A stretch of 64,000 nucleotides of DNA, taken from assembly GCA_965178125.1 (NCBI GenBank), contig OZ237765.1:744001-808000 (forward strand). The letters are read 5' to 3'. Shown here in pieces: positions 47 through 64,000 of this stretch. Every line of letters starts with the position of its first letter. Position 1 is the stretch's first letter. A model generated the notes under the pieces. It saw nothing but the letters and a program-made list of their open reading frames with translations. It was not told the origin of the DNA and searched no databases. The translations under genes and the position numbers were made by a program. The DNA comes from Bilabrum cf. latius. Taxonomy: Eukaryota.

Positions 47-1846
47 ATGCAGACATTTCTGGAAGGCGAGCGATCTGCTGCCAAAGATGACTCGAACGCG
101 ACAAAAGCCGCGGCCGGGACGCATGCTGATACGCTGTCAAAGGTAAGCACCCGTACAGCTACTGTTGCTTCGGATGATAAAAACGATGGCAACGAAGAAA
201 CAGCGAGGGCGACACTGATGGCCCTTCTGCGGGCATCAGCCGCTGCAAGTGCAGGGGAAGAGCCGGATCCCATGGTGGACTGGCTTGTGTTTATATCATT
301 TGTCGGTAATGTATTTATATTGATCGCCAAGATCATCGTACTGGCGTTTAGCCTGACGTTGAGCGTGATTGGCAGCTCGCTAGACAGCTTGCTGGATATC
401 GCAGGTGGCGTGATCATCTATTTTTCCACCCGTGCTGCAAAGAAGACCTCGCTCCACGCGTTTCCAGCTGGGCGGGCTCGCGCCGAGCCGGTCGCGATCG
501 TGGTGCTCAGCGCGGTGATGGGGATGGCGGGCCTGCTGCTCGCACGAGAGGCAATCGCCTCTCTGGCAGCCGGTGCCCCGGACCGGGGCGAGGACGAGGG
601 CCCGGACATCCCTTCCCTGGCCGTGCTCGGCATCAATGTCGTGTACAAAGTCACCATGGCCTGGCTCTGCGGGGCCTACAAGGACGTCTCCCCCTCCATG
701 GGGGCCTTGGCGCAGGACCACTTCAACGACTGTCTCACCAACGGCGCGGCTATCCTAGCCGTCGGACTGGCCAGTGCCTACCCCGATCTGTGGGCGGCAG
801 ATCCCGCCTTTGCCATCCTGCTGGGCTGCTACATCATCTGGTCCTGGGTGCAGGAGGGCGCGGAGCAGGCCCGTCTGCTCATAGGCAAGGTGGCCAACCC
901 TGACGTGCTGCAGGAGCTCACCCGAGTGGCCTATTTCCATGACCCGAGGGTCCGCGCCATCGACTCCGTGGTCGCATTCCACGCAGGCACGCGTGTGACC
1001 GTGGAGGTCGACCTGCTGCTGGACCGAGGCATCCCGCTGCACGAGGCGCACGACATCGGGGAGGCCCTTCAGCTGAGGCTAGAGTCATTCGCAGAGGTAG
1101 AGAGGGCGTACGTGCACCTGGACTATGAGGTGGACCACAAACACAGCATGGCGCAGCTCGAGGCGGGGGCGGGGGGCGAGAGACACAGGGAGAAGAAGGG
1201 GGATGAGAAGGAGGACGACTAGGAGGAGGAGGTCGGCGGCAGCGTGGCTCCAAGGAGCGGCGGTTCAGACGGAGGATCTTCGGGTGGTGTGACGAGTGAC
1301 GGCGGGGGCGCTGCGGCTGCTTCGGCCCCACGATCGCGTGATGGTGGTACAGGAGAGTGCGGTAAAGGCCAGTAGGAGTAGAAAGAGGAGGAGGAGGGGG
1401 AGGGGGAGGGGGAGGGGGAGGAGGCAGTGGACGTGGAGGCAGGGGAGGTGAGAGCGAGAGTTGGGGCGGGGGTGGGGGTGGCAGTTGAGGGGAGGAGGGA
1501 GGGGGAGGGCGAGGCTGCGGGTGTGGAAGGCCAGGGGCAGGGGCTGGGGCTGGAATAGGAGGAATCGGAGGGTGGGGACGGGGCGTCCTCCGGTGGCAGC
1601 TCCCCCCGGGCCGTGCGGCGGCAGGGGTCGGGCGACCTGCGCAAGAGGCTGGGTGGGAGGGTGAGGTTGGGCGTGGGCGGGGGCTCGCCGCGGTCCATGG
1701 ACGGGACTAGCGGGACTGCGATGGGCCAGCTGGCCGAGCACGTGGTGAAGTAGCCGCAGTCGGGCAAGGAGCTCATGGGAGCGGGGGAGGTGGCTGCCAT
1801 GGAGGCGGAGCTGGAGAAGGCCTCGAGGACGACTCGGAGGGGGTGA
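47..1846 (+). CDS. Cation diffusion facilitator (Mn-CDF / MTP8-11-like metal tolerance protein) with acidic low-complexity C-terminal tail
   Basis: Motifs SSLDSLLD, QDHFND, HEAHDIGE and RAYVHLDYE plus hydrophobic TM segments. The frame continues through in-frame TAG at 1220, 1373, 1379, 1556 and 1751 to TGA 1844-1846. Confidence 0.9.
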
Positions 1847-2031
1847 ACGGGAAGGATTGCAAGGTGCTGCTGCTGCTACGCTGGGCTTCCGATTTCTGAG
1901 GGGGCTTCCAGGTCGCGTGCATGCGTGCGTTCTATTCTATAACTAGATCTAGAGTCGGCTATGGTTGCACTGCACTGTTGCTACGATACAATTTTTCGGC
2001 TTGGTACTGGGACAATTACGAATCTAACACC

Positions 2032-5000
2032 ATGGCAGCTTGCTGGGATTCAGTGGTTGAATTTGTTGAGGAGTCATGTTGCTGCTGCTGCTTTGGTGCT
2101 GGTACAGATTGCTGCCTACTCGTTTGCTTCAGGCCCTCGCACTGGCGCAGGGTTGTCGTTGCTCTGTTTCCCCCTACGGCTCTCGGAGGAGTCGAAGAGG
2201 GTTTGTCCCGCATTGTACGCTACAAGTCTGTTGTGGAATTTGCACAGGAGCGTACCTCCCACCTTGCCCTGTTAGGCCCAGAGCTTGAGACAAGGATCCG
2301 ACGATACGCTCGCCGAGGCTGCTTCGGGTACGTAGAGAGCGGATTTGCTGCCATTGATTCTATTATAATCAAACTCAGTGGAACACCGTCCGCGGCTCAA
2401 GCCCTCGGCGTGGCAGACTTTGGGGAGGACAGCGACGAGAATCAACAGTCGCCGTACGCAGGTCGCGGCGAGAGGGCTGGTGGAGCATCCAAAGACAGGC
2501 AAAGGGGCGGGGAGTTTAGTGCCAGAAACATCTCTACGAGGGGCAGTGGGCGCTCCGGCGGATCCTCCAAGTCTTATGACAGCTCATGGCTCCGTCTGGT
2601 CGACGTCAACTTCACCTCCTCCGCCTGCCTGGCCCTGGAGCACGCCCACCCCAGGGCTGTCAGCGCGGCGGCACACACGTGCGCGCTGTTATCTGCGCGC
2701 TTGAACCACCTGCTCGATCGGAACAGGCTCCAGCGATTCGCTGACGTCCTGCTGCCAGCCGCTGCCAAGGGCCTCGAGTGGGGCTCGATCTCGGGATCCG
2801 CGCCCTCTAACACGGTCGCACCGGGCGACGCCTCCACGCCGGAGCGGCAAGCCGCCATCGCCTGCGTCTCCGTGCTGGGCGCACTCAGGGTCGTGCTGGC
2901 CCGCGCGGATGCAGCCGCTCTTCGGAGACACGCGGGCTCCACGCTGCCAGTGCTCATGCGGCTGCTGCGGAACATGGCGGCCGCGGCCGGTGTGACGAGT
3001 AAATCAGGTCAATCGCAGATCACTCACGAGTCTCAAAATCACCGCACTGCGGTGCTCGGCGTACTGGGCGCCGTGTGCCTGTGCCTCAGGACCGCGGCCT
3101 CTGCCATCGACGCGAGCACGGGCGGGGCGGTGGCAGAAGCCGCCCTTAAAGAGGTGGGGGAGTGGGGATATGGGCCTGACGAGGCGGGGGTGGGGGCGGC
3201 TGCCCTGCGGCTGTTGGATCCCCAGGGGCTGGGGGGGAGGTGGAGGGGTGCTGCCTCGGGGGCGGCGATGGGGGTCTGGGGCATGGGCCCTGGGGATCCC
3301 AGCTAGGCCTCGCGTGCCTCTGGGGGTGGATCTGGCCCAGGACACTCGTCGTCGGTCGAGCCATCAAAAGGAACCGACGAGGACGAGGAGGACGAGGACG
3401 AGCCCACTGTTCCCCTCAGGATCGAGACACCGGGGCCGGGTCTCAAAGCCGCGCTGTCGGCACCCCGCGGGGAGCAGCAGCAGGCAGCAACCCTGCCGAG
3501 GCCCATGGGCGTGCTGCTGGCCGGGAAGGTGGGCAAATGGCTGGAGGAATACCCCCAGGTGAGGGTGCAGGGGAGCAAGGCCCCCACTGTGGGGTCAAGC
3601 ACCACCGGTCCGGACCGCAGCGCGCTCCTGGTTCTAGTGGGGCTGTGCCTGGGGTCATGCCGGGAGGCGAGGGCGAGGCAGCTGAGGGGGTTCGCCGCGG
3701 AGAGTGTAGGTCCTTTGGCGTTCCTGGCCATGGACGAGCCCTCTGGGGGAGGTGAAGGCGGAGGGGGTGATCGCGATGGATCCACGGGTGGATTAGGGGT
3801 CGGGCTGGCGGCTCTGGTGGCGCTCGAGAGCGAGTGCCTGGGAGCCACTGGATGGGGAGGGGGGGGGATGGGCCTGGATGGGGCTGGGGATTCCGGTGCT
3901 GTGAATGAGGGCAAGTGCAAGGGCGCTGGTAGGGCCTGGGAGCTCGTGTGTGGTGCAGTGCCCGGGGGCACGTCGGGCTTGATGCGCCTACAGCATGGTG
4001 CCGCCATCTCGCGCCATCCTGCGATCCATGAGGTGCGGGAAGACAGCAGGGGCAGTGAGAGCGGGTCTAGATCTGCATCTGAAGGTACTAGTGACGGTGA
4101 TCGTGCTGCAGGTAGGAAGGACAGCGAGTATGGCTCTCAGGTGCGCGAGGTCGGGCTGGAGTCTGGCTCGCTGTCCCGGGGGCTGGGCCTGGGCAAGGAG
4201 CACGGGCACGGGCATGGGTATGGCTCGTTCAGGATAGGGGGGGGTGCTTCTTCACCCGGTTAGTCGTATCGGAGTCAATCACGGGGGGCTATGCCGATGT
4301 GCAGTGCCATGCAGCGCGTGGGTCTAGAGGCGGTGCTCCGGCTTGCGTGGGCCTCCGGGGCAGAGGGCCAGTCGAGGGGGGCCCAGTCGGCGTGGGCGCT
4401 ATGCCAGGTGGTTGCAACCGAGGTGGCCGCTGTGCACTCCATGAGGCATTCCACAACTAGAGGGAGTGGCGGTGCAGGTGTGGCCGGCTTGGGGTCAGCG
4501 GGTGCATCGCACGATGCGTCGTACATGGATCGTTGGGGGGACGAGTGGACCCTGCTGCCAGGCACCCAGCCCGCATCTGAGGCACAAAGAGAGGCGGAGG
4601 GCAGCATGCACCGGGGAACAGCAGATGCGAGCGCTCCTGCGGTGGACGGGAAGCGACCACCCGGCCCCCCTCCACTGCCTGCTGCCCCTGCCCACCACGG
4701 CTCAGCCCCACCGCCGCCTCCTCCGCGCCCCCTCCCAAGCACCCGCCCACGATCCATGTCACTGTCAGGAGGCCAATGGGCCCGGCGGGCCTCCATGATG
4801 GGCAGGGTGTCTCGGGGCACTCGGTTGGAAGTAGGGGCTCCGAGTCCTGACGGGCCAAGAGTGACGGCCGTCAGCCTGCTGGGCGGAGGAAGCCGCAGTG
4901 GCAGTGGCAGGGGTATTGGCCAATCGGGGGAAGGGACGCGCGGCATGCATGCAAGGAGCCAGCAGCAGGAGAGGGAGGAACAGGAGGCAGAGCGACTCGA

Positions 5001-7932
5001 AGGGGTGGAGGTAAGGGGACTGGAGGTGCTCAGGGTGGCGCTGCTGGTGTCAGGTGCATTGCATGCGGGTGCATCTGCCCCCGTGCACCCGGGCGTGGTC
5101 CAGGTGGCCGCGCTGGCCTCGGCCGACTAGAGCCCGGCGGTGAGGCTGGCCGGGGCGCGGGTGCTCGAGGCGGTTGCAACCGGTGGTGTGGGAAGGCCAT
5201 GGCGGCGCGCGGGAGCAAGTGCAGTGCATGGCAGTGCGGGTGCAGCGAGCAGCGCAACCGCAGTAGTCGGGGGTGGTAGTGGGGTTTCCCGGGATCAAGA
5301 CCCGCTGGGAGGCATGGGCGACCTGTTCGCACTGGTGCCAGAGGCAAAGGCAGAAGGGGCAGGCAATGAAGCAGAACGGGCCTATGGGAGTACCCATGGA
5401 AGGCCCACGACAGTTGACGCTGCGCTAGTTCGTGCTAGAGGGGCTCTGCTGGACATGCCCTCCACAGAGGCAGCTGCTGTGGGTCTGTCTCCGAATGCGC
5501 CACAGCCCGCCGAGGCCCAGCCACCGCATCTGAGCCTGTCCTCGCCGCAGCCAGGGAACAACAGGATGGTGTCTGGCAGCTCCATGGCCAGCGCGGGCGT
5601 GCTGCTCCAGACGCACGACACCGCGGCTGACCTGTCACTACATGCAGCCGGGGCCCGGGCCGTCGGGGCTGGCAGGACGGACAGCGGTGCGGGGAACTTG
5701 GGTCATGCAGCTGGCTACAGCCCAGGCGTGGGCATGGGCATGGGCAGTCCTGCACTGGGCTCGGCTGCGTCCATGGGGGGCTTCAGTCCTGGCCGTGCTG
5801 GGAGCTCGCCCGGCAGGCCGCTCTGCTTTGTGGTGGGCAGGCAGTCGTACAGCCACCCCTCCCCATCGCAATCATCCGCTGGTGTTTCTTCCACTGGGGG
5901 CATGAGGCAGGAGGGCAACAGGCCGGGTCCATCTGCACGCAACAGGATGCATGGGGCCGACGTGCAGGCTGTGCTGATCGCTGCAGTGAGCGCCTGTACG
6001 CGCATGGCTGGATCCGTGGGTCACGTTGTGGCGACTCATCGAGCGTCGCAGGATGCAGGGGCAGGAGCAGAGGCACCTGACGATGAACAAGGGGGCGAGC
6101 GGGAGCGGGAGCTCTGCAATGTCGCCGCCTCACTTGCCGCTGCAGTGCGATGCATGCGCGCCGCGCGCGCCGCTGCCGGATCCCAGGGAGTGCACGGCAT
6201 TGCAAAGCTAGTCGCAACCAGCGGCACCCTCCTGCGCCTGTCCTCTGCTCTAGCACGGCAAGCCGGAGCAAGCGATTCCGAAGTGCTGTCCTCCGCTGTG
6301 CTCGCCGAGTGCGGGCTGGCCTTGTGGGCCGCAGCGGCGGGCGACCTCTAGTCGGTGTCTGCGGCAAAGGAGGCAGAGGAGCTGCAGGAGAGCCTGGCGC
6401 AGGTACTGCAAGCATCCGCAAGTGTTGAAGATGAAGATGACGGGGCTAAGAGCGCCATTGAGGCTGGGATGTTCCCTCTGGCGATCGTGTCGTCTCCCGG
6501 TCCAGAGCTGCTGGGCAAGACGCACCTCATGGCTGGACTCGGAGCTGCTTCCGCGGGGGCACAGCAACCCAGTGCACTGGTGGGGAACATTTATGCCGAG
6601 CGTGGGCAGGACGTCCACGCGATGGGGCAGGGCTAGGCTCGTGTTCGCCAGGGCGAGAGATCGGCGGGAGAGTCGGGCGGTAGGGCGCATCGGCATCAGT
6701 ACCGCAGGGGTGTGGCACACCTGCCTGCAGCGCACTGCATTGCACGAGCACTGCGGGTGGTTCGTGCGATTGCGAGCAATGCCAGCGAAGGATCGGCCGG
6801 AGAGAGCCGTGTCGCTGCCATGGCACTGAGACTAGGGGACTGGTGCACCGGTGCCCAGCGGAGGATTATCGCCGCGTTCGAACGCACGTCAGTGGTGAAG
6901 GCAGCCGTGGGTGCAGCGAGGAAAGCACCAGATGTCGCCGCGCAGCTCCTGCAGCCGGTTGGGGCCAGGGGATGGGGATCAGCGGACCGCAGACGGCTGA
7001 GGAAGATGATAGACACGCAGGCGCAGGCGCTGCCTAAGGAGATCAAGCGGCATCTGGCGCTGCAGCGCAGTGCAGTGAATCAAGGGAGCGAGAGAAAGGG
7101 TGGTACCGTGGATCCTGCGGCAGACACCGAAGGATCCATCCTAGAGCTGGGGCCGGGGGCAGGGGCGGCAGCGGGCGTGCTGGGTCTCGAAGCCGGAGCC
7201 AAGGCAGCAGATGGTGCCGGTGGTCGGGCAGCCAGCGCAGCGGGTGGGCCTGTGGACCTGGCCCCTGCGATCGGCAGGACGGCGAGCCTGGGCCTGTGGG
7301 CGCCCGGCAGGGCTCAGGAGAGGGCCGTGGGCGCCGCGCACGGAGGTTCCGCAGCGGTGCGCGGCTTGCTGCGGGTGCTTGCCACGGAGGACCCCTGCAC
7401 GGTGCTGCTGCGGGAGCTGGAGGCAGGGGTTGTGGAGGCGCTGCCGGGAGCGGGGGTGGAGCGAGCCGATGGGCTCCGAGTGATCGGATCAGCCGAGTCT
7501 CTCGAGGCGGTGCTGGCGGCCTCCTGCCCCCTTGAGGGGCCAAGGCGGCTGGCGGCGGATCTGGATGAGTATGCCGGTGGTAGTGCTGGGGGCGGGAAGG
7601 GGGTCGGCGGCAGGGACGGGGGCAGGAGCAGGAGCGATTCGGGGTACTCGTCACATGGCAGCGCGGGCCCGGGTCCTGTGGGGCAGTCTCTGCTGAGTCG
7701 CGCCGCGGGGAGGCGGCGGGCCGGATCTCGAGGGGGGGTTGATTCTCCTGCGGGCGGCCTCGACCTGGCGGGCGTGACTGCTGCCGGTGATGGCGGTGCT
7801 GCCGCGGTGGGCGTGCCCGTGGGGGAGGTTGCTCTTCACCTGGGGAGGGAGGCTGCAGCGGAGAACAAGTGCCAGGAGGCGAGGGTGGACGGGCTGGAGG
7901 ACGTGCTGGCGGCGCTGGGGGTGGAGATGTGA
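2032..7932 (+). CDS. EFR3: EFR3-like protein (PI4K-III-alpha membrane anchor), ~1966 aa with long Gly/Ala-rich insertions
   Basis: The N-terminal Cys cluster and CFRPSHWRRVVVALFPP...LGPELETRIRR...GYVESGFAAIDSII resemble the EFR3 N-terminus. Six same-frame ORF pieces are joined by TAG at 3304, 4261, 5128, 6349 and 6634. Ends TGA. Confidence 0.7.
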
Positions 7933-8005
7933 GGTAAAGATGCGGCGCTGGGTGTGCATAGTACGAAGTGGGTTACAGAATTGCAGGTGTCCTGTCTGAG
8001 ATCAG

Positions 8006-11000
8006 TCACATGTACACGCTCTCGAGCAGCACGTTGGCCACCTTTTTCATCTTCTGCGCCTTCTCCCCGCTGGCTGCCTCCTCCTTCTCCCTGTGGCTGT
8101 CCCTCAACCGGTCCTTGACCACGCGGAGGGTGTGCCGCACCAGCCGATTCTCGTCCCCGAAGAACTTGGCCCCACGCTCGTGCATGATGAACAGAAGGTA
8201 CTGCACCTTGGACACGAGCGTGGGCAGCGCGCCGGAGCCACCCCTCTCCTTGGCGTCAGCGTACGAGTACAGGTGGTTGGCGATCATCGCGATGAGCTCA
8301 ACGAACTCGGGGTAGCACAGGGTGTCGGGGTTGTCGTCGTGTGCGAGCCCCCTGTTGGCCTCCCTGAAGATGGACGTCAGCTGCGGCCTCGTCAGCATGT
8401 CGGGCATGATCTTCATGTCTCCGCAGAACTTGTAGAAGGCGTACCTCGTCATGCGGTGGTGCGACTGCAGCACCTGCTGCCACCCCTCCTGCCTCACCTT
8501 GAGCACGCCATCGCCCCCGATCGGGTCCGTGGCGCCGCCGCCCACCGAGGGCGACCCAGCCGAGGCGCCGGCAGCCGCGGCGCCCGCGCCACCGTGCGTG
8601 CCTCCCTTGCCCGGCTCCTTCAGCATGGCAAACCGCATGAAGATGGACTGAAAGGCATCGTCAAAGTCCTAGAAGAACCCGATCGTGTCCTGCGTCAGGA
8701 ACTGCTCGTTGAAGCGAGCCAGCGGCTCCGCGCTGCCCTCACGCACCACGTCGTAGACAAACGTGGCGCTCTTCTTGAGCTTTTCGTAGATAGGCAGCAC
8801 GTGTTCCTTGAGCAGCGTCCTGAGGGCCTCCGACTCGTAGTTGGGGTCGGACTCGACCTCGCGCTGCCTGGCGGGGTCCAGGTCGCGGTACTTGCGGGCC
8901 GCCAGTGACGTCAGGCTCTGGATGAAGGTCTCGTAAGACATGCGGCCCGTCTCGCCGGCTCTCCTCTGCTCCCTGGCCACCACGATGTCCACGTCGCTGT
9001 GGGACACGTGGGTGTTGTCCAGCACCCGGCAGTCCCGGACCATCTTGTAGAACTGGCTGCGGCTGATCGTCTCGCCCGTGCCCAGCCTCTGCCCGAACAT
9101 GGCGTAGTAGGCGAAGATGTTCCTCAGCTTCTCGTCTATCGTGCTCTCCTTGGCCTTGACGGGGCTCTCGTCCAGCTCCCCCCTGACGGTCTGGTCCCCC
9201 GCCCCGATGCGGCGCACCATCACTTCGTGGGGACCGACAGACCCGCGCCTGCCCTGCCTGCGGGGAGGGGACCCTGACCTGCCAGCCGTTGCAGCCTGGA
9301 TGGTCTGCATGGCCGCGGGGGTGGGCACGGCTCCGCTCCCCCTGCCCTAGGGCCCCGCCGCCGCCTCGATGCCCGCCTTCTCGGCCCCCCTTCCGAACGC
9401 CGCCACGAGCTCTGCCTGTTGGGAGGCCCTGGCCTGCTGCTGCTTGGCCGCGCGGTCCTTCATCACGCTCATGCGGCGGGTCTTCTTGGCGAAGGCCAGC
9501 ACGCCGTCGGAGGGGCCTGTCGGCGGCGGCGGCGGGGCGGGGGACCCCTGGGCCGGGCTCCCGATCCCGCTCCCCGCCCCCACAATGGGGTCGTTGCCCA
9601 CCTCAGCTCTGACGGCGGGGGGCAGCGTGCTCCACGCCTGGTACCCCTGCGCGCCACCCTCAGCCACCGAGGTTGCAACCGTGGTGCCGTCCTCGGCCAT
9701 GGGCGCGCACTCCTGAATGGCAGCCTCGAGCCGGGAGCCAATGGAGCGCATCCTGCGGTGCGTGTCGTCCTCCCCTCGCGCCTGGAAGATACCTCGGGAC
9801 CGATCGAGGGCTTCCATGAGCTCCGTGGCGGCGGGCTCGATCTTGGCCAGCGCCTTCTTCCAGGCCCTGAGCTTTGACCTGGCCGAGTCCAGGGAGGCCG
9901 TCTTGGAGGAGAGCTTCTGCTGCAGCCGCTGCACCACGGTCCGCTGCTGCGACTGGTACTGTGACACGTCCGCCATCTGACCGTCGAGTTTCCTCTGCGC
10001 GGCGAGGAGGTCTCTCTTGAGCCTCCTCTCCCGCTGCAAGGCAGCATCCAGCAGCTGCTGCGTCTCGGACACGCTCGCCCTCCTGCCCCCACCCGAGGGG
10101 GAAGCGCTCCTGCTCGAGGCCGTGGCACCTCCCGCTGGGACTAGGGCCTGGCCCCCGGGGGTGGACGCCAGCACCGAGGAACCTTCCCCGGGGAACTTCT
10201 TCCCGTGCTCCTGCCACGTGTGGCCCATGGCCCCGTCGTACCCCGCCTCGGGCTGCTTCTCTTGGAAGGCCTCGAAGGCGGCTCTCCCGTGCTCGGCGTT
10301 GTACTTGCCCGGGCCAGGGACCCACGTCTTCTCGTCCCTGAAGCGGGGGGCCTGCGACCACGAGGTCATCTTGGCCCCCTTGGGGAGGCCGTGGGCGCGG
10401 CGGGCGGAGGAGGGGCCCTTCCCGTGCCTGCCCCTGCCCCCTGGTGTTCCGGTCTGGGCCGGCCTGTAGAGGGCCGACACGATCTTGGGGCCCTGCGGCG
10501 CAGCGGTGCGGGGGCGACTCGCCTGAGGGGGGCTCCGGGCTACGGTTCCGTTGGACTGCGCGGCGCCACGGCCGTGGTCCATGGCGGCCAGTGAAGCCGA
10601 AGTCCCGTTGAAGTCGCCGGCGCCGCGCGCCCCCGGCGGGGCAGACGTTGGGGGCGGGGGCGGGCGGGCCTCTGGCGGGTCCACGCGGTTGGGCATGAGC
10701 GCGCGCGCGTCTTCCGGTTTCGGGGGCGGCGCCTGCCCGTCAAAGGGGGACGGGCTGGGCCCCTGGGAGACTAGGCTCTGCGTCTGGCGGGCCAGCTCTC
10801 GGATCTGCTGCTCTAGGCTCTCGCACTGCGGAAATGTAGTATGTTAAGGGGTGCATATGAGTGGGCGTGCGTCGTGGATCAAGCTTGATGCTGCTCAGTG
10901 CGGTTCTGCAACGAGCACTTCTGTCGCATAGCCCGACTTGAGGGAGTATAGTTGCGAACACGTCATCGCCCGACCCTATGGATAACACATGGGTGCATTC

Positions 11001-11335
11001 TTGCTGCTGTGAGCCCCTGCACTTCCGCGCCAACTGGCCCATGGGCTCAGCGACCACAGGCAAAAGCACGCGATCTGTACGCGGGTGATACCAAGCACAA
11101 ACACTTGCGCGACAATCCAGGCAGCTTGCAAGATTGCAAAACTGATATCTATTCTTGCAAGCGCGTTGCGATCACATTGGTGCAAGGAAGCGATGGCAAG
11201 CGATAGGCACAGATCTACCATAAGGGTGCAAATCGCGGCGGGCGCGCTCACCTGTTCTTTTTCGCGGCGAAGCTTCTCCTCCACATCTGCAAGTCGCTGT
11301 ACCTCTTCGACCCTAGGATTCAAGGGGGCCGCCAT
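8006..11335 (-). CDS. Coiled-coil protein with p25-alpha/TPPP-like (EF-hand-like) domains and a PGPGKY (STPGR/SHIPPO-type) motif; probable cytoskeletal/flagellar protein
   Basis: Exons 11335-11252 and 10825-8006; intron GTGAG...CTTAAC...CCGCAG. Segment KLRNIFAYYAMFG...SQFYKMVRDCRVLD...DVDIV...MSYETFIQSLTSLAARKY. In-frame TAG at 9347 and 8669. Ends TGA. Confidence 0.7.
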
Positions 11336-55036: not shown

Positions 55037-55137
55037 TGAGGTGCAGCTGCAGTTGAGCGAATACTTGGAATGAACAGACAGCTGTTGCAACAAACAATGC
55101 CCGTATTTATATCTGCATTCAACAAGCACAGGCCCGC

Positions 55138-56517
55138 TCAAGGGCCCGGGTCTGCTGCAGCAGACCCAGTCCCGGCAGCCTCCTCGCCCTCGCCCTCGCC
55201 CTCGCCCTCGCCCTCGCCCTCGCCCTCGCCCTCGCCCTCGCCCTCGCCCTCTCCAGCCCCGCCAGCTGCGGCACCCGCAGGCGCCGGCACCTCCCTGGGT
55301 GGCTATCTGCCCACCACCAGTGGCCTACCGTGCTCACCCCCGGGACTGGGCCCTCCCTCCTCGCCCCCCTCCTCCTCCACACCAACCACCCCCGCCACAG
55401 GAGACCCCGGGGCCCCCTCTCCCCTCGTGCCCGCCCAGCCCTTGAGGTCGTCGCTGGTCAGGCGCGCCGCCCCACTGAGGTGTGCCAGGGAGGCCCTCCT
55501 CCACTGTTCCTTGGAGGGGTGCTCGTCTGCAAGGGGGCCCGCTTTGGCCTCTTCCACCTTGAGGAGGCCCTTGGTGACGTACTGGAAGGCCTCCTCCACC
55601 GAGTCTGTGAAGTAGAGCCGGTCCACGTCCGACTGGCTCATGGTGCCCATGTCCACTGCCGCCTGAAAGTTCACCACCCTCCGCCAGTAGGTCTCGCCGA
55701 ACATCACGATGGGGGTGTGCCGCTTCCAGCGCCGCTCCTTGCCGCCGATCTTGCCCGTCTGCAGCAGGGTCATGGTCTCGGCCAGCTCGTCCAGAGTGCC
55801 TATGCCCCCAGGGGCCACCACCAGCGCGGCTGAGTCGTGGACCAGCCAGAACTTGCGGGTGGCGAAGTAGTGCAGCTCGAAGGAGAGTGCAGGGGTGCAG
55901 TAGGGATTCAAGGAGGGCTCGAAGGGGAGGCTGATCCCGATGCCGATGGAGCGAGCACCGGGCACTTGTGCAGCTCCCCCGTTTGCCGCCTCCATCATGC
56001 CGGGGCCCCCACCGGTCGCGATCACGTAGGGCTCCGAGCCAGACGCGTCCCGCCGGCCCATGCTCCATTCCGTCAGTCTACGGCTCAGCTCTCGTACCCT
56101 AACGTAGTACTCGCACATCCAAGCAGTGCGCTCGAGACGGTCGAGCTGCGCAACCGCGGTGTCTCGCTCCTCTGACCCCTCGGCTGCAGCCTCCACTGAC
56201 TTCTTGGCCGCAGCGACCGCCTTAACATGGTCATCAGGGTGTTTGGCACGAGCAGACCCGAAAACAAGTATGGTGCTCTTTACTTTTTCGCGTTGCAGAC
56301 GCTGTTCCGGTTCGAGCAGCTCCGAGAGAAATCGGAGGGGCTTTGCCGCTGGAGACGCCAGGAATGCAGCGTTCTTGTACGCCTTTTGCGGCTTAATCAT
56401 GTCCATGCCTGGGGGCAGCTGAACAACGGGGTCAAGTACGTCAGCCGCAGGGGCATCGCCTTCCACCCGTGCAGCTGCCACTGGCACAACATCCTATCCT
56501 TTCCCGGATGATGCCAT
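55138..56517 (-). CDS. LOG/SLOG-family (lysine-decarboxylase-like) nucleotide phosphoribohydrolase
   Basis: Motifs VFGSAR, TGGGPGMMEAAN, LPFE, YFATRKFW and PGGIGTLDE. ATG at 56517, in-frame TAG at 56494 and 55303, TGA at 55138. Intronless. Confidence 0.9.
55183..55250. repeat. (CTCGCC)n hexamer repeat encoding Gly-Glu in the LOG tail
   Basis: Directly visible. Confidence 0.9.
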
Positions 56518-56734
56518 TAGAAAAGAGAAGCTTGAACCACAGCTTCACAATAATACAATACTGTCTTCGCTAGATCCGCGTCGGCGTTCAGTAAATACTG
56601 TGTCGAGGCGGCTACTTCGTCAATCGGTTTCGCCCAATTCTGTTGAAATTCAGATTTTGGTTGCTTCAAACAACACCATATAAATAATCACATCTTGATT
56701 CTGTCAGAACAACATTTCGATCGAATAGCCCAGT

Positions 56735-59343
56735 ATGGCTGCTTTTCAGGCCGTAATGCGATGCCCACACATGCGAATGGCCTCAGTTGGGAATGGTGTG
56801 CTGCGTTCGTCCGCTTTGAAGTCAATGATGCGCTGCCCACACATGAACAAGGCTATGGCACAATCAGTTGCTTCCCTGTCTGGCGCCGCTACCAATGCGT
56901 CTGCCGTGGCCGCAGATGTTGCATCCAAGCGTGAGTATGATATATCTTGAGCTTATTGTGAAGCCTACAAAGGTCATACCCTCCAGTAGTCTGGCTGTGT
57001 GAACATGATGCAGGAGTCGCCGTACCGCTACTGCAGAGGCCGGCTCTCGCTCGGATGTTGGCCTTTGGCAAGCCTTATTGGGTGCTACGGGTGTAACTTG
57101 ATTCTAGATTTTGGTAACACCGCCGTTTAATCCGAATATTGAGGACTGGCTGAGAAACTGCCGATGCTGAGGTGACGTGGATGCTAGCTTTTCTTACCTA
57201 TGGTCTCCGTTGAAGCCAAATGGCCGTACTATTGCGGTCCAGTGAATTTAAAAGAACTCTATGAGTCTATTTGCCGGCTCTAGATTGCTCCGATGACATC
57301 CCCTAGTGTCTTCACGCTCGCTGCCATGCACGGATCCCTGATCAGTCGCCATGTTGCTGTTCTCATTACGCAGACGAGAACATACGTCGCTCTTCTTCCC
57401 CACCCCCCGAGTGCTTCGAAGCCCGAGCATCGCTTGCAGCTGGGCAGCAGCTGCCCCAGTCCGTGGCCCAGGTGGTGGCGAGCGTCGGGCACCGGCAAGC
57501 TGCATCTCCCCTACAGCCAGAGGCACGCGGCGCCGGCCAAGCAGTGGGCGATGCATCGGTTGCCGTCGAGGATGCATCTGAGTCCGGGCCAGACGTGTGG
57601 ATGAACCGCGGTGCCAAGAATGTCGATGCTGGCACATGCCCGCATGGACACGGGCAGCCTCTCGAGAGCGGCCGTGGCGGCGTTGCCTCAGCCACCGGAG
57701 AGCATGGCTCGTAGAAGGGGCAGATGGAAACGGAAGTGGGAGGGAAGCAGCAGGGAGGCTCGTCCGTCTCCCGCTACGAGGCCGGCTTCAAGCATGCCAT
57801 CAGCTCCATCCGCCGTGAGGGCAGGTACCGCGTGTTCCGCACGTTGGAGAGGCACCAGGGCAGGTTCCCCTACATGACGCTGCACGGGGAGCAGGGAACA
57901 GCCGAGGAAGGGGCACAGGGTGACGAGGGGCAGGCCCAGTCAGAGGCCAAGGAGATCGTGGGGTGGTGCTCGAACGACTACCTGGGCATGGGCCAGCACC
58001 CCGAGGTCATCCGGGCAGCCGTGCAGACGGCCGTGGAGTAGGGGGCAGGGGCGGGCGGCACCCGGAACATCAGCGGCACCAACTGCGAGCACGTGAAGTT
58101 GGAGCAGGAGCTGGCGGACCTGCACGGCAAGGGCGGCGCGCTCATTTTCCAGTCGTGCTACATGGCCAACGACGCGGTGCTGACCACTCTGGCCAAGGTC
58201 TTTCCCGGTCTGGAGGTGTACTCGGACGAGATGAACCACGCCTCTATGATCCAGGGGATCAGGCACTCGGGGGCCCCAAAGCACATCTACAGGCACAACG
58301 ACATGGAGCACCTGCGCGAGCTGCTGGCCAAGGCAGACCCCAGCACGCCCAAGCTTGTGGCATTCGAGTCGGTCAACTCGATGGAGGGCACGGTGGCGCC
58401 CATCCACGAGATCTGCGACCTGTGCGACGAGTTTGGGGCCATGACCTTCTGCGACGAGGTGCACGCCGTGGGTCTATACGGGGATACTGGGGCCGGGGTG
58501 GGCGAGAGGGACGGGGCCATGGATCGGCTCGACATGGTCACCGGGACGCTCGGCAAGGCATACGGTGTGGCGGGGGGATACGTGGCTGGGAGCGCTGCCA
58601 TGGTGGACGCGATGCGGCTCATGGCCAGCGGTTTCATCTTCACCACGGCCATGCCGCCCGCCAATGCCGCGGCCGCCACTGCCTCTGTAGCCCACCTGAA
58701 GAGATCCACCTGGGAGCGCCGCTTCCTGCACGCCAACTCGCAGCACCTGAAGCGGCTCCTGGTAGACGCTGGCATACCGGTCATGGACTCGGTCTCGCAC
58801 ATCGTGCCCGTGCTGGTGGGTGACGCAGCCAAAGCCCAGGCGGCCTCAAAGATGCTCCTGGAAAAGCACGGAATTTACGTGCAGCCCATCAACTACCCCA
58901 CGGTGCCCCGTGGCACGGAGCGGCTCCGGATGACGCCTACCCCCTTCCATTCGGAGGCCATGATGAGGCAGCTGGTGGAGGCCCTGGGGCAGGTGTGGAC
59001 CGAGCTGGGGCTGGGGAGGTCCCGTGCCTGTCCCGCGGGCATCAAGGAGTACGCTGCTGTGCCCGAGGAGGAGCACCTCCCGAGGGTGGAGTGGAGCGGG
59101 CCTGTGCAGCGGGAGGACAAGGACGTGACGGCGGTGGAGCGGGAGAGGCACGAGGCCAGGGTGAGGGAGTTCCACCAGCAGGCAAGCGCAAGGGGAAGGG
59201 GCAGAGAGGCGCAGGGGGCCACGGATGCGCTACAGGACAGCGCGCTGTGGTGGGCAGGGGTGCACGCATGTGGCGCAGCGGCCGAGGGTTTGAAGGAGGC
59301 AGCGGAGACTGGCCATCATGCCCAGGCGTAGGGTCGGGTGTGA
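56735..59343 (+). CDS. ALAS: 5-aminolevulinate synthase, mitochondrial, with N-terminal CP heme-regulatory motifs
   Basis: Exons 56735-56930 and 57374-59343. Motifs [47 protein letters not shown] and [17 protein letters not shown]. In-frame TAG at 57712, 58039 and 59329. Ends TGA. Confidence 0.96.
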
Positions 59344-59687
59344 GAAAGCTGGCAGGGCGGTAGGGGAGATCGCCTCAATCAGGCTGCTTTAATGTGTTGA
59401 TCTGGTCCAGCGCATAGTCGGGGCAAATGCTCGGCTTCTGCCGCTCGCAGATACACCTTAGGAGCAGCGAGTCTAACAGTGATCCACACGATCCATACTT
59501 GATTCGCGAAGAATCCTAGCAACTTCGGGATCCATCCATGGATACATGAACGAATCATGATAATCCCATAAGATCCTCACATTTTGTTATAACTTATCTT
59601 CAGAACAGATCCTCGGACATGGTCCGATCTAGACTTGGTCTGCTTGGTATTGCACCGGTTCTGTGCAGACAGCCAGAGAGCTCAACC

Positions 59688-62600
59688 TTACGTACTGCCC
59701 GTCCTTGCGACCGACTCTGCACCGAGGTGGCGTGACTGCTGCGCGTACCGCGCTGCGACCCACAGGGTCAAGCTAGCACTCCACAGTATCCCCAGCATGG
59801 ACAGCACTAGTGGCCCGCCCACTAGTATGCCCCGCTCCCACAGCCACAGCCTTGCGTCAAGCAACTCTCGCGCGGGCGACTCGTGCCGCGCAACCGCGCA
59901 GAACCCGGCAGAGGCCGGGTCCTGCATCGAGGTGCACCAACCGCCCAGCGAAAGCGCAGCAAAGAGGCCGAGATCCTCGAGCAGCCGCACCGCAATAGAC
60001 TGCACCCGCACTCGGCCCACCCACTCTTGCACGGGATTTGTGGCCCACCCAGCCAAGCCACCAGTACCCCCCAGCAGCATGAGCATGTGGCTGGGCCCCG
60101 CGTCCCACGCAAGCAGCGACACCAACCGCATGGCTACTATGGAGCTCTTGCTCGGGGTCTTTGCGCGGGCAAGAGGCAACCAATGCCCATCGATCAAGTG
60201 CTATCGACTACTGGTTTCCCCGCTGCTCCGGACTCTGTTGTACTACATGCTCTTGCCGGAAGCGGCCGACGGGTGTGCCATCAACGCGTCGGCTCGATCA
60301 TGCTTGTACGCTTGCTCCTACGCGTGTACCAGCTCCGCGACACAGTCCGTCTGTGGCTCGAGCGAGCCTCCGGAGCTGTCCATCGACTGCACCATTGGCC
60401 CCGTGTCCACAGCGAGAATGCACCCGCCCGCAACCTGGCTGTGCACGCGCATGTCCGACTCGGAGGGCGCACCACTGCTACGTAGGCGACTCGATGGGAC
60501 CACCGGACTGGCGCCTGAGTCCAGGGCTGCCGCTCCGGTGTTTGGATGCTGTGGTAGGAAATGCAACGAGTCAGTTCCAGCGTGAAAGCTTCGTGGGGAG
60601 TTCCTGCCCTGCATGGCTAGTCGGTATTTCGGGCCCGACTGCGCCGCGGGATGAATCGCGGTGAGCTGTGCATCGCTTGCAAATCGGCTCCCTTGCCCAA
60701 GCAGCTCGATCAGCATGCTCGTGGCATCGTGTCCCATGCAAGTCAGTATAGCTCTGCAAGCCCCGCCCAACCCAGCAGCTACCACCAGAACAGCTCCCGC
60801 CCCTGACAGATCGGCAGCGATAAGGGATAAGGCCAGCAGGATGTACCCCATGGCGCGAGCGACACCCGCCGCTGCTATCAAGTCAAGAGTACATACTAGC
60901 GAGACATCAGAGCTGCCGACCCCCTGCCCACCGCTGCTATCCTGATCCTCCCCTAGGAGCACACTAGATAGCCCTGCAGGGTCTTTGTCCACCATGCAAA
61001 AGCTTTGATGCACGCACTGCCCTACCGCCCCCACGACGCACAGCAACCCTACAGCCACGGTGCACCATGCCCAGGGAGAGGCGCTCAGCTGCGCTGCAGG
61101 ACACCTGTCCCACCTGCTGGCAGACCCCTCGCGCAGGCAAGGCAGCCGCACTTCAAGCCGCGCGCTGGATGCGTTCACAACTGGTAGCCACACGCCTCCC
61201 GGCAGCTGACCAGCTCGCAATAGCCGCACGAGACGCTGCGCCAGAGCCCCGGCGCTGCGAGTCCTCTGCTGCGGCACCCCGAGAACCTGCACTGCGGGCA
61301 GAGGCCTGAGTCTGACCTTGACGTCAATCTCCATGCGGATCACGGGCGGGTGCACCGAGGGTTGCAGCTTGGTCAGGCTCTGCTGGCTTGAGGCGGCTTC
61401 GGGTCGATCGGTGGGCAAGTCGCCGATGGGCCATTGCGGTGGATGTGCTCTGATGCCCATGATGAGGGGCTCAATACGGCGAGTGTCGAGGGAGACGTTC
61501 CTGCCCTGGTCTGCGTCCCACTCCCCCAAAAGATCTGCGATGTCAGCGCCTAGCTCCGCGGAGAGATGGTGCAGCTGGTCTGGGCTCGGCTCGGGATATT
61601 GCAGCCCCGGTGGTGCAGCGGGCTAGGGGGTCATGACCTGGGCTTGCGGCCACATATTTCGGTCGAAGTCGAGCGTGAAGTGCACCAGGGCAGTGCTGGA
61701 CTGCTCCCTCTGGGCCCATGCGGCAGAAAATGACAGCTCAACGCCTTTGCCCCGGTCGTTGACACACGTCAGTGTATGCTCGGCCCCATTGTGTGAGGCT
61801 GTAGCTCCATTCACAGGCAGGGGCGGTGACCCCGACCAGGCTGAAGACCACACCCTCGACACCGAGGCAGCCATGGCCCACCCGGTTGGTCTACCTGTGG
61901 GACTCGGTTCCATCACCAGGTCGACGGGCACATGGTCGGGATCATTGCACTTTGCCCTGCACACGGGTCGATACTAGAAGGCACCGATCAAAGACGTGTC
62001 GTTGCACTCCCATCCTCCCCCATTCACGACGGGCAGCTGCTGCAGCGCGGCCCCTGGGATTATGCGATCTAGCCGTACCCCCCTATACCTGGCGAATGGT
62101 CCTATCAGCGGAGATATCATCTCCTATGGCAGGGACCAAGCAGGTGACACCGGATCTTGGAGCGGTGTCGCGCTGCCATTCAGCGATGGGCTGGCTCGAG
62201 GTCCACGAAGGCGAGATATAGGCGGGCGCCAGGCACCGTGGGATGGAGGGTATGCCCTGCGGAACTCGCCGCCTATGGTCACTGCTCGCGTGGAAGTGGC
62301 CGCGGGATAGTCAAAGTGCACCAGATCTATGTTATACTCGCTGGTATTCACTGAGTATAGAGAAGCGCAGCCCAATTTGCCAGCCCTGCGCCAGGCAGGC
62401 AGGGCCTTCTGAGCGTCCATCCAGGACTACGACGCGGCGCTGATGGCGGATTGGCTCCATTGCAATTTGTTATCGAAAGAATGATCGTTAGTGCCTGCCC
62501 CTAGGGCGACAGTGGGGGAACAGTTCCTGGCCTGCACGCAGGAGGGGTCGTCCAGCAGCACGATGGCAGCGACCAGGACCGGCTCAGTGCCCCCCTTCTC

Positions 62601-64000
62601 GCTGCTGCAGACCACGGTGCTGGCTTCAAGGGAGTGGCCGATGTCCATGGTGGGCACGGTGTCCATCATGGTTTGCGTCACGGGCACGCGGTTGAGGCGC
62701 CATGGGTAGCCTGTCTGCGGGTATCCCAGGTGCAGCAGTCTGGAGCCGTTGGTGGGCAGCACGGCCACCGTGCCCGGAGGATAGGTCACCGACACCACCT
62801 GGTGCCAGCGATTGCCCTGATGAGCAATATGTTCCTGCTGGGATCCCCCTCTGAAGCTGAAATACTACTCCACGACCCCCACCGCAGTGGTGGCCTGTGC
62901 CACTGCGTAGTCTTGCTCGAACACAGACCGGTTGGCGAGGGATGGCCCTGTGTGCGGGATCAAGGGACATGCACCGGGCGATACAGCCCCATGGTCTGCA
63001 CTGGCAAACATGCCCCGACCTGGGTCTTCCCACTGAGGGGGCCACAGTGTGGCCTGTCTGCAAGTGTCGTTCGGTGCGATGGGCACGTCCATGGGGGTGC
63101 ACCTCGGGGAGTACAGCGCCCTGGGGCACACGGTGTGATGAGTGAACAGCCGAGGCTGTCTCATGTATCCGTATGTATTCAAGTCCACCTGTGTCCCTGC
63201 AGAGTAGTCCCTGTACACACGCGGCGATGTGAGGGGCTGCTGCGGGACGGGGCTCCAAGGCCGCTCTGACTCCCCGAGCCCGATGATGCCAGGCCACTGG
63301 TAGTAGCCAGCCGTGATCAAGCCGCCCGTGATGTGGTTGTCGGAGCTGCTAGGCTGTCGGAACTGAAAGAACCACTGCTCTTCCGTCCATGGCTCGACGC
63401 TGCGGGTCGGCGGGAACAGGGCGGACCGGCTTGTGGTGCAAGCAACAGCCAGTGCCGGCGGTTCTTGGGCGGTAGCTGCGGCTGGCGTGTACCCCTTATC
63501 GGCCGCCATTGTGGCAAAATTTAATATTTTGAGGGGGTTCCTAGCACTGACACCATTGGCTCGTGCTAACTGTCCCTCTGGACCTGCGCTCCAATTCCAC
63601 CGCATCGTAGCTTGATTTCGAATGGAGCCTGACCAGGGTTGCTGTACGACATCGCAGCCAAGCCCAATGTTCTGCTCCATGCTTTCGTTGTAATGGATGA
63701 TTCGCGAAGAACGAACAGCCGCCGGGCCAGTTCCTGTTGCATTAGCTGGCCAGGCTGCTCGCCACAATGCTGCTTGCCAGTGGGTCAATCGGGAACGATT
63801 ACAACGGGATGCAACGAGTAAGAAAATGACCAGCTTCGTTCGATTGATTACTTCTCATGGTATTGTTAGTCTGTGTGCACTCACAATTGCACACGGGCTC
63901 GCTTTGCGAAGCGAAAGGCAGCAAAATACTCGCGCCTGCGTCTCGCATAGTCTCGATGGTCCTCGCATCACATCCCAGATGCAGCAGGATTGCAGCAAAG
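59688..64000 (-). CDS. Large membrane protein of unknown function (long ectodomain, several C-terminal TM segments); 5' end outside the window
   Basis: Partial exon 64000-63885, intron 63884-63770, then one frame to TAA 59688 with 8 in-frame TAG (62865, 62427, 62124, 61974, 61623, 60318, 60243, 60201). Confidence 0.6.

What the first reader, a model, noticed from the sequence alone, without database searches (positions are those of the whole stretch)
47..64000. Non-standard nuclear genetic code: TAG is a sense codon (Gln) across the whole window
Seen: same-frame ORF fragments abut at TAG in 17 of about 23 genes. My hand count is about 77 internal TAG, with no frameshifts and no internal TAA/TGA. 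The affected genes include conserved housekeeping genes (COQ8, ALAS, GCP2, CFAP91). TAG often lies among Q/E runs (CAG TAG GAG TAG AAA at 1370; GGG TAG CAG CAG CAA at 22919). Reading through TAG extends genes until most convergent neighbours end about 70-170 bp apart. Known: UAG=Gln with UAA still a stop is rare in nuclear genomes; it is reported in the fornicate Iotanema spirale and a few ciliates. Most reassignments move UAA and UAG together. Inference: this GC-rich, intron-containing flagellate does not look like those lineages, so the reassignment may be independent and possibly undescribed.
Basis: partly seen in the sequence, partly recalled or inferred. Interest (0 to 1): 0.97.

Follow-up and report, generated by a model that had tools for sequence, protein, structure and literature searches.

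The report
Flagellate that reads TAG as glutamine
This stretch of nuclear DNA comes from a GC-rich flagellate related to Cafeteria that uses the stop codon TAG as a glutamine codon, a rare change of the genetic code that I could not find reported for this branch of life.

Summary
Reading TAG as sense gives 7 ORFs of 1000 codons or more, against 0 under the standard code and 0 in 60 simulated windows. 17 of 20 large ORFs carry 77 in-frame TAG.

TAG behaves as glutamine:
- One TAG sits at a COQ8 column that is Q in 120 of 120 homologs.
- A second strain's transcript has TAG where the window has CAG, at another column that is Q in 120 of 120.
- A syntenic metagenome contig from a relative has 6 in-frame TAG in GCP2. 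The 3 in conserved blocks pair with CAG, CAA and CAG here.

Spliced transcript contigs from three runs keep the TAGs, so errors, editing and micro-introns are excluded.

No TAA or TGA triplet has coding-like sequence on both sides (0 of 291 and 0 of 1389, against 17 of 717 for TAG).

The closest named relatives are Cafeteria (COQ8, 54% identity), so this is a bicosoecid-like stramenopile. Five searches found no paper reporting a nuclear code change there. The code itself (NCBI table 15 type) is known.

Still open:
- whether TAA is a reliable stop (all 3 TAA ends are followed by TGA within 2-4 codons);
- the tRNA and eRF1, which lie outside the window.

The parts
1..64000 (.). Nuclear DNA, about 64% GC, with 21 recognised genes. 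TAG is used in frame throughout; TGA is the main terminator.
52529..55036 (+). COQ8/ABC1 atypical kinase ORF, with TAG at 52898, 53552, 53699, 54818 and 54908. The TAG at 53699 is the Q of the KVQYPG motif. The CAG at 53648 (Q of SIGQVH) is TAG in run X5. There is an intron at 52507-52605.
22577..28147 (+). GCP2 (gamma-tubulin complex component 2) ORF, with TAG at 22664, 22922, 23522, 24035, 24248 and 25856. Orthologous to L001.
56807..59343 (+). ALAS gene. Exon 1 ends at 56930, the intron is 56931-57373, and exon 2 runs from 57374. TAG at 57712, 58039 and 59329 are kept in spliced transcript contigs of 3 runs. The TAG at 57304 is intronic.
33603..35981 (-). CFAP91 ORF, with TAG at 35393, 33752 and 33629. 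The last is 8 codons before TGA.
18031..20574 (+). DUF5054/GH38-like ORF, with TAG at 18718 (Q in the nearest homolog), 19663 and 20554. The last is 5 codons before TGA, and the conserved C-terminal strand continues after it.
2..1846 (+). Cation-efflux (CDF) transporter ORF, open at its 5' end. Five TAG lie in the acidic C-terminal tail (1220, 1373, 1379, 1556, 1751).
8009..10843 (-). ORF with a p25-alpha domain, with TAG at 9349 and 8671.
16480..17475 (-). DUF2306 membrane protein ORF, with TAG at 16665 and 16485. The last is 1 codon before TGA.
55141..56544 (-). LOG / lysine-decarboxylase-like ORF, with TAG at 56496 and 55305.
48708..52178 (-). ORF of 1157 codons with no Pfam family. TAG at 51533, 51488 and 51482 lie inside spliced transcript contigs. 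The intron is 52082-52181 and holds the TAG at 52085.
36580..42636 (-). ORF of 2019 codons, rich in low-complexity sequence, with 16 in-frame TAG. It ends at TAA, followed by TGA 4 codons later.
59691..63854 (-). ORF of 1388 codons with 8 TAG, all inside run X5 contigs. It has an intron at 63770-63884. It ends at TAA, followed by TGA 2 codons later.
44271..48611 (+). ORF of 1446 codons with 8 TAG. Four of them (44340, 44502, 45324, 45708) lie inside one X5 contig.
1900..7932 (+). ORF of 2010 codons with no Pfam family and 5 TAG.
13490..14770 (+). ATG27-like membrane protein, a paralog of 11804-12757(-). It ends at TAA, followed by TGA 3 codons later.
28284..28996 (-). Small membrane-protein gene with an intron, lying between GCP2 and ASS and conserved in L001. 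I call it TMEM97/EXPERA-like from recall; this was not tested.
29271..30617 (-). Last exon of argininosuccinate synthase. It has no TAG and is 81% identical in DNA to L001. Both copies end ...KLGNKL followed by TGA.

Best explanation
The organism is a GC-rich, intron-containing heterotrophic flagellate whose closest named relatives are the bicosoecid Cafeteria. It translates UAG as glutamine throughout its nuclear genes. UGA is the usual terminator (18 of 21 ORF ends). UAA is not used as a sense codon.

Shown:
- UAG lies in frame inside conserved, expressed, spliced genes.
- It falls on Gln positions.
- It alternates with CAG or CAA between strains and between related species.

Inferred by analogy with other UAG-to-Gln lineages, and not tested here:
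- decoding by a cognate tRNA-Gln with anticodon CUA;
- an eRF1 that no longer terminates at UAG.

A related uncultured organism (metagenome contig L001) shares the trait. The change is therefore a property of a small lineage, not of one strain.
For: 1. ORF structure. 7 ORFs of at least 1000 codons appear only when TAG is read as sense. Simulations give 0.

2. Specificity. Coding-like sequence lies on both sides of 17 of 717 TAG, 0 of 291 TAA and 0 of 1389 TGA.

3. Amino acid.
- COQ8 TAG at 53699 aligns to Q in 120 of 120 homologs.
- DUF5054 TAG at 18718 aligns to Q in the nearest homolog and to M in the other 5.
- At GCP2 TAG 25856, Q is the commonest residue, in 26 of 140.
- A 17-site BLOSUM62 likelihood, with one partner per site, puts Gln 5.2 ln units ahead of Arg and 5.3 ahead of Glu.

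4. Strain polymorphism. Run X5 has T for C at 53648, turning CAG into TAG at a column that is Q in 120 of 120. This rests on one contig at depth 5.4.

5. Cross-species evidence. L001 is syntenic (GCP2, then a small membrane-protein gene, then ASS; ASS is 81% identical in DNA). Its GCP2 has 6 in-frame TAG. The 3 in conserved blocks pair with window CAG, CAA and CAG.

6. Not an artefact.
- The DNA run X1 shows no difference at any TAG.
- Spliced transcript contigs in runs X5, X6 and X7 (two studies) cover ALAS 57374-59443 with the three TAG unchanged, and in X5 and X6 also cover big5 with its three TAG unchanged.
- 18 TAG in all lie inside X5 contigs that show 0 differences and 0 gaps.

7. TAG near gene ends is read through. 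In DUF5054 the conserved C-terminal strand follows the TAG. The tails after the last TAG score as coding (0.23-0.51), while the sequence after TGA scores -0.16 to -0.48.

8. Lineage.
- The best COQ8 cluster contains Cafeteria roenbergensis and C. burkhardae proteins (54% identity).
- In a single-gene FastTree the query is sister to the clade of Cafeteria plus unnamed relatives.
- The first named GCP2 hits are oomycetes.
Against: - Only two TAG-related columns are strictly invariant Gln. Most of the other aligned TAG fall at variable positions: ALAS H/V/C, CFAP91 A/E and K/R, p25 N, and GCP2 D, I, E, R, R, P.
- The polymorphism rests on a single low-depth contig.
- No tRNA was found in the window (ARAGORN found 0), and there is no eRF1, so the mechanism is untested.
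- 4 of 20 ORFs have a TAG within 8 codons of the final TGA (0.69 expected, P = 0.005). In COQ8 the relatives' proteins end 1-7 residues after the TAG at 54908. Some UAG could therefore still terminate, or these could be former stops.
- The placement rests on one gene tree, for which I printed no support values, and on best hits.
- The background amino-acid frequencies used are approximate values that I recalled.
Confidence: 0.88

Rival explanations
1. Both UAA and UAG encode glutamine (the classic UAR=Gln code, NCBI table 6), and UGA is the only stop. TAA would be nearly absent only because the genome is GC-rich.
For: All three ORFs that end at TAA have a TGA 2-4 codons further on. Only 1 of 18 TGA-ended ORFs has a second stop that close (Fisher P = 0.003). 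So every one of the 21 genes could in fact end at TGA.
Against: - CAA makes up 133 of the 730 CAR codons. If TAA were equivalent to TAG (77 codons), about 17 internal TAA would be expected. None is seen.
- 0 of 291 TAA triplets have coding-like flanks on both sides.
- L001 GCP2 has 6 TAG and 0 TAA, against 13 CAA.
Confidence: 0.07
2. UAG is ambiguous. It is read as Gln inside genes but still terminates near the 3' end of some mRNAs, as in the context-dependent codes of Condylostoma, karyorelict ciliates and Blastocrithidia.
For: - TAG is enriched in the last 8 codons (4 seen, 0.69 expected).
- The COQ8 relatives end 1-7 residues after the window's TAG at 54908.
Against: - In DUF5054 the homologous C-terminal strand lies after the TAG.
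- The tails of 30-54 codons after the last TAG in CDF, COQ8 and LOG have coding-like codon usage, unlike the sequence after TGA.
- A TGA follows closely after the near-terminal TAG, which would be unnecessary if TAG itself terminated.
Confidence: 0.1
3. UAG is a sense codon but stands for another polar residue (Glu, Arg or Lys), as UAG does for Glu in some ciliates.
For: Many aligned TAG sites hold E, K, R or D in homologs.
Against: - The two columns that are Q in 120 of 120 homologs.
- Three TAG paired with CAG, CAA and CAG in conserved blocks.
- The likelihood puts Gln 5.2 ln units ahead of Arg and 5.3 ahead of Glu.
Confidence: 0.03
4. Artefact: assembly or sequencing errors, pseudogenes, U-to-C RNA editing, or tiny in-frame introns that remove the TAG.
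For: None found.
Against: - A DNA run at about 100x shows no difference at TAG sites.
- Spliced transcript contigs from three runs keep the TAG, with no gaps or joints at them.
- The genes are conserved and intact apart from TAG.
- A related organism shows the same pattern.
Confidence: 0.01

Closest known systems
UAG=Gln with UAA and UGA kept as stops (NCBI table 15 type). Reported in the fornicate Iotanema spirale, the ciliate Protocruzia tuzeti and two phyllopharyngean ciliate lineages (PMC11687900 and PMC5304391, passages read).
   Same: Only UAG is reassigned, and to glutamine. No in-frame UAA or UGA is seen. UGA is the dominant terminator.
   Different: The host lineage is a GC-rich aerobic stramenopile close to Cafeteria, not a metamonad or a ciliate. 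Here every UAA ORF end is followed by UGA within 2-4 codons, so the strength of UAA as a stop is uncertain.
UAR=Gln codes (NCBI table 6). Found in many ciliates, Hexamita, oxymonads, ulvophycean green algae and the aphelid Amoeboaphelidium protococcarum (PMC11687900 and PMC6299283, passages read).
   Same: A stop codon is reassigned to glutamine, and UGA is the main stop.
   Different: Internal TAA is absent here (0 seen, about 17 expected).
TAG-to-Gln recoded phages (code 15), noted elsewhere in this scan.
   Same: The same codon takes the same meaning.
   Different: Those are phage genomes that carry their own suppressor tRNA. This is a eukaryotic nuclear genome with spliceosomal introns.
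Cafeteria roenbergensis / C. burkhardae nuclear genomes (10.1101/751586, passages read).
   Same: They are the nearest named relatives. They are very GC-rich (about 70%), and the paper spot-checked two intron-containing genes.
   Different: The passages I read mention a non-standard code only for the mitochondrion (UGA=Trp). The Cafeteria COQ8 proteins in the databases are full length, so they give no sign of in-frame TAG in that gene.

Membership tests
UAG=Gln, UAA/UGA=stop nuclear code (NCBI table 15 type) | In-frame UAG inside conserved protein-coding genes, with no frameshift or gap | tested here: met
   ALAS, COQ8, GCP2, CFAP91 and DUF5054 align straight through TAG. There are 77 TAG in 17 of 20 ORFs.
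UAG=Gln, UAA/UGA=stop nuclear code (NCBI table 15 type) | UAG falls on glutamine positions | tested here: met
   Q in 120 of 120 homologs at COQ8 aa 391. A CAG/TAG polymorphism at aa 374, also Q in 120 of 120. Three TAG paired with CAG, CAA and CAG against the relative. Gln is the best fit by 5.2 ln units.
UAG=Gln, UAA/UGA=stop nuclear code (NCBI table 15 type) | UAG is present in mature mRNA (not edited, not spliced out) | tested here: met
   Spliced transcript contigs in runs X5, X6 and X7 keep the TAG of ALAS (all three runs) and of big5 (X5 and X6). These are contigs, not raw reads.
UAG=Gln, UAA/UGA=stop nuclear code (NCBI table 15 type) | UAA and UGA are not used as sense codons | tested here: met
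   Coding-like flanks on both sides for 0 of 291 TAA and 0 of 1389 TGA. 0 internal TAA against about 17 expected. This holds for the window and L001 only.
UAG=Gln, UAA/UGA=stop nuclear code (NCBI table 15 type) | UAA works as a terminator | tested here: inconclusive
   3 of 21 ORFs end at TAA, but each has a TGA 2-4 codons later. The paralog comparison gave no alignable tails.
UAG=Gln, UAA/UGA=stop nuclear code (NCBI table 15 type) | A cognate tRNA-Gln(CUA) gene | not testable with these tools
   No tRNA in the window, and no whole genome is held.
UAG=Gln, UAA/UGA=stop nuclear code (NCBI table 15 type) | eRF1 N-domain substitutions that lower UAG recognition | not testable with these tools
UAR=Gln code (NCBI table 6) | In-frame UAA at Gln positions as well as UAG | tested here: not met
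   No internal TAA in 17,948 codons, nor in L001 GCP2.
Context-dependent (ambiguous) stop/sense codes | The same codon also ends genes near the mRNA 3' end | tested here: inconclusive
   TAG is enriched near ORF ends. But homology and coding-like codon usage continue past it.
Bicosoecida (the stramenopile order of Cafeteria) | Phylogenetic placement within or next to the clade | tested here: inconclusive
   One COQ8 FastTree places the window as sister to Cafeteria plus unnamed sequences. The best named hits are Cafeteria and then oomycetes. No 18S or multigene tree was possible.

The most novel reading that the evidence does not exclude
This is the first nuclear stop-codon reassignment in stramenopiles, and it has been caught at a young or transitional stage. 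UGA is the only efficient terminator. UAG is fully captured by glutamine. UAA is being vacated: it is never used as sense, and it is tolerated as a stop only where a UGA follows within a few codons. 7 of 21 genes carry a TAG or TAA within 8 codons upstream of the final TGA. That fraction is roughly what one would expect if they are former TAG and TAA stops of a GC-rich ancestor. It would give a GC-rich, apparently culturable model for how UAG and UAA uncouple during code change.
Probability: 0.3. Interest if true: 0.85.

Novelty: new member of a known kind. Interest (0 to 1): 0.74.

Why it matters
Nuclear genetic-code changes are few. Cases where UAG and UAA have different meanings are fewer still. 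The papers I read list one fornicate (Iotanema), one uncultured rhizarian, the green alga Scotinosphaera and a few ciliates.

An independent case in a free-living, aerobic, GC-rich stramenopile next to the well-studied Cafeteria would do three things:
- add a new major lineage to the list;
- give a close comparison between a standard-code relative and a variant-code organism;
- test ideas on how a stop codon is captured when the genome is GC-rich rather than AT-rich.

There is also a practical side. Any annotation of this genome, of related metagenome bins or of contaminated transcriptomes under the standard code will cut most genes into pieces. The database fragments P0139, P0142, P0144 and the 52-residue P0291 look like such pieces.

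Tried and rejected
- Whole genome: none is held. I could not scan for tRNA-Gln(CUA), find eRF1 or run a genome-wide code inference.
- ARAGORN and Rfam on the window: 0 tRNA and 0 RNA families.
- ESM Atlas with the TAG-free ASS exon: it returned only generic argininosuccinate synthase clusters and gave no taxonomic help.
- Amoeboaphelidium (an algal parasite with UAR=Gln): considered and dropped, because the nearest relatives are stramenopiles and TAA is not sense.
- Protein searches for DUF5054 and the p25 protein: only 6 hits and 1 hit, so they added few informative columns.
- GCP2 TAG at 25856: the two PDB GCP2 alignments shown suggested a conserved Q. The 140-sequence count showed a variable polar column where Q is only a plurality.
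- Paralog test of the TAA stop (g3 against the ATG27-like gene): they are paralogs (E = 1e-15), but the C-terminal tails do not align.
- Earlier notes of this scan: nothing on this genome or on look-alike windows; only phage TAG cases and a Cafeteria mitochondrial note.
- Sequencing runs: no listed holder is on record as RNA. I treat X5-X7 as transcript-bearing only because of their GT..AG joints and uneven depth. The tool itself marks X5 'probably DNA', and 12 of the 18 TAG covered in X5 lie in unspliced low-depth contigs.
- Script failures: one time-out and one script error, both rerun.
Full report
**What the window is.** The window is 64 kb of eukaryotic nuclear DNA, 60-72% GC per 4-kb bin. 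It holds no tRNA and no Rfam family.

Pfam and PDB sequence searches identify the following:
- a cation-efflux transporter
- a p25-alpha protein
- an ATG27-like pair of paralogs
- DUF2306
- a DUF5054/GH38-like protein
- a triple-RRM protein
- GCP2
- argininosuccinate synthase
- CFAP91
- COQ8/ABC1
- a LOG-like protein
- ALAS

There are also six long ORFs (667-2019 codons) and one of 312 codons without a family. A small membrane-protein gene sits between GCP2 and ASS.

- With TAA and TGA as the only stops, the window has 7 ORFs of at least 1000 codons and 23 of at least 500. Under the standard code it has 0 and 9.
- In 60 Markov simulations that keep dinucleotide content, no ORF reached 1000 codons under either code.
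- The 20 large ORFs hold 77 in-frame TAG in 17,948 codons. 17 of the 20 have at least one.
- Making TGA sense also lengthens ORFs. I attribute this to antisense frames of GC3-rich genes.
- The decisive control is therefore the flank test. I trained a codon log-odds score on the Pfam-matched stretches. Both 40-codon flanks look coding for 17 of 717 TAG, 0 of 291 TAA and 0 of 1389 TGA.
- Four of the 77 TAG are not coding: two lie before the first ATG of the GCP2 ORF and two lie in introns.

**Not an artefact.** One run search gave a deep DNA run (X1, possibly the source of the assembly) and three runs from two other studies (X5, X6, X7).
- The contigs of X5-X7 show canonical GT..AG joints at 56931-57373 (all three runs), 52082-52181 (all three), 52507-52605 (X5 only) and 63770-63884 (X5 only). 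Their depth varies up to about 100-fold along the stretch.
- I therefore read them as carrying transcripts, although the tool marks them only as guesses and marks X5 'probably DNA'.
- No run shows a different letter, a gap or a joint at any TAG.
- The spliced ALAS contigs keep TAG at 57712, 58039 and 59329 in all three runs. The spliced big5 contigs of X5 and X6 keep 51533, 51488 and 51482.
- In all, 18 TAG lie inside X5 contigs with 0 differences.
- Sequencing error, U-to-C editing and in-frame micro-introns are thus excluded for those sites.

**Which amino acid?**
- The TAG at 53699 in COQ8 is the Q of the KVQYPG motif. It is Q in 120 of 120 homologs.
- Run X5 carries T instead of C at 53648, which turns the CAG of SIGQVH into TAG. 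That column is also Q in 120 of 120. The evidence is one contig at depth 5.4.
- In DUF5054 the TAG at 18718 aligns to Q in the nearest homolog (SQRDVPGLTR) and to M in the other five.
- In GCP2 the TAG at 25856 aligns to a variable polar column where Q is the commonest residue: 26 of 140, against K 23 and E 20.
- The other aligned TAG fall at variable positions: ALAS H/V/C, CFAP91 A/E and K/R, and p25 N.
- Taking one partner per site over 17 sites, a BLOSUM62 likelihood puts Gln 5.2 ln units ahead of Arg and 5.3 ahead of Glu. The background frequencies used there are approximate.

**A relative with the same habit.**
- Several database fragments close to the window's GCP2 lay on one 6769-bp JGI metagenome contig. 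I fetched it as L001.
- It is 61% GC and syntenic with window 24087-30356: GCP2, then the small membrane-protein gene, then ASS. ASS is 81% identical in DNA.
- Its GCP2 is broken under the standard code and joins up when TAG is read as sense.
- Of its 6 in-frame TAG, the 3 in well-conserved blocks pair with window CAG, CAA and CAG. The other 3 pair with R, R and P in variable stretches.
- The window's own 3 aligned TAG pair with D, I and E.
- L001 GCP2 has 0 TAA against 13 CAA. Both GCP2 and ASS end at TGA there.

**TAA, TGA and gene ends.**
- Of 21 ORF ends, 18 are TGA, 3 are TAA and none is TAG (by construction).
- TAA is never internal. From the CAA:CAG ratio (133:597) about 17 would be expected if TAA were equivalent to TAG. 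So TAA is not a normal sense codon.
- Yet each TAA end is followed by TGA 2, 3 or 4 codons later. Only 1 of 18 TGA ends has a second stop that close (Fisher P = 0.003; Mann-Whitney P = 0.009).
- TAG is also enriched in the last 8 codons: DUF2306 1 codon before TGA, ALAS 3, DUF5054 5 and CFAP91 8. That is 4 seen against 0.69 expected (P = 0.005).
- In DUF5054 the conserved C-terminal strand lies after the TAG. Longer tails after the last TAG have coding-like codon usage. I therefore read these as former stops that are now read through, not as working stops.
- In COQ8 the relatives' proteins end 1-7 residues after the TAG at 54908, which fits a C-terminal extension created by the reassignment.
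- These samples are small. An ambiguous use of UAG, or a weak UAA stop, cannot be excluded.

**Who is it?**
- The best COQ8 cluster (54% identity) contains Cafeteria roenbergensis and C. burkhardae proteins. The next named hits are oomycetes and plants.
- A FastTree of 453 columns puts the window as sister to a clade of Cafeteria plus unnamed metagenome and Logan sequences. It is a single gene, and I printed no support values.
- The first named GCP2 hits are oomycetes, then a chlorarachniophyte and an ochrophyte.
- Cafeteria nuclear genomes are about 70% GC, and the paper spot-checked two intron-containing genes. The passages I read mention a variant code only for the mitochondrion (10.1101/751586).
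- ALAS, COQ8, CFAP91 and p25-alpha fit an aerobic heterotrophic flagellate.

**What is known?** From passages of PMC11687900 and PMC5304391:
- UAG-only reassignment to Gln is reported for Iotanema spirale, Protocruzia tuzeti and two phyllopharyngean ciliate lineages.
- UAG=Leu is reported in an uncultured rhizarian, and UAG=Ser in Scotinosphaera.
- UAR=Gln is reported in ciliates, Hexamita, Streblomastix, ulvophytes and Amoeboaphelidium. PMC6299283 (passages) also reports it for the last.

Five full-text searches found no paper reporting a nuclear reassignment in a stramenopile. They combined stramenopile or bicosoecid terms with genetic code, UAG or stop codon reassignment. A sixth search, on heterotrophic flagellates, also found none. 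The library lacks most subscription journals. The runs date from 2025, so a description may exist that I cannot see. I read no supplements. A paper on tandem stops in ciliates with reassigned codons (PMC6879139) was seen only in the search listing.

**Verdict.**
- The code variant is a known kind (table 15 type). The lineage appears to be new for it, and a relative shares it.
- The mechanism, a tRNA-Gln(CUA) plus an altered eRF1, is inferred and not shown.
- The status of UAA and the possible recency of the change are the most interesting open points.

Noticed in passing
14768-14779; 36565-36579; 59682-59690: Each of the three ORFs that end at TAA has a TGA 2-4 codons downstream in frame. Only 1 of 18 TGA-ended ORFs has a second stop that close (Fisher P = 0.003). 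UAA may be a weak stop here.
   Followed up: partly
16485, 59329, 20554, 33629: A TAG lies 1, 3, 5 and 8 codons before the final TGA in DUF2306, ALAS, DUF5054 and CFAP91 (4 seen, 0.69 expected). These look like former TAG stops that are now read through to a nearby TGA.
   Followed up: partly
53648: One transcript contig of run X5 has T for C, making CAG into TAG at an invariant Gln of COQ8. This looks like a synonymous strain difference under the new code. It rests on a single contig at depth 5.4.
   Followed up: partly
L001:1-6769 (syntenic with window 24087-30356): A metagenome contig from a related organism keeps the gene order GCP2, small membrane protein, ASS. It has 6 in-frame TAG in GCP2. 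Its two GCP2 pieces are in different frames and overlap at 1653-1770, which could be an intron or a frameshift in the contig.
   Followed up: partly
36580-42636 (-), 55141-55300 (-), 1200-1843 (+): There are long in-frame microsatellite-like codon repeats (runs of AP, GA, GE and KSKG, plus 20-30-residue tandem units) inside ORFs. They explain why contigs of all runs break there.
   Followed up: no
window 22577-28147 and 52529-55036: Homologs of both GCP2 (P0293) and COQ8 (P0005) are each recorded on a JGI contig of the same length, 141,550 bp. This may be one contig, which would hint at conserved linkage of the two genes in a more distant relative.
   Followed up: no
window 44001-64000: Runs filed under two other organism labels (coded B and C, from two studies) hold near-identical spliced transcripts of this organism. 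It may live in, or contaminate, cultures of other organisms. I did not try to identify them.
   Followed up: no
7933-8005, 20575-20741, 28148-28280, 33532-33599, 48612-48704, 55037-55137: Convergent gene pairs end only 68-167 bp apart, so 3' UTRs must be very short or overlapping.
   Followed up: no
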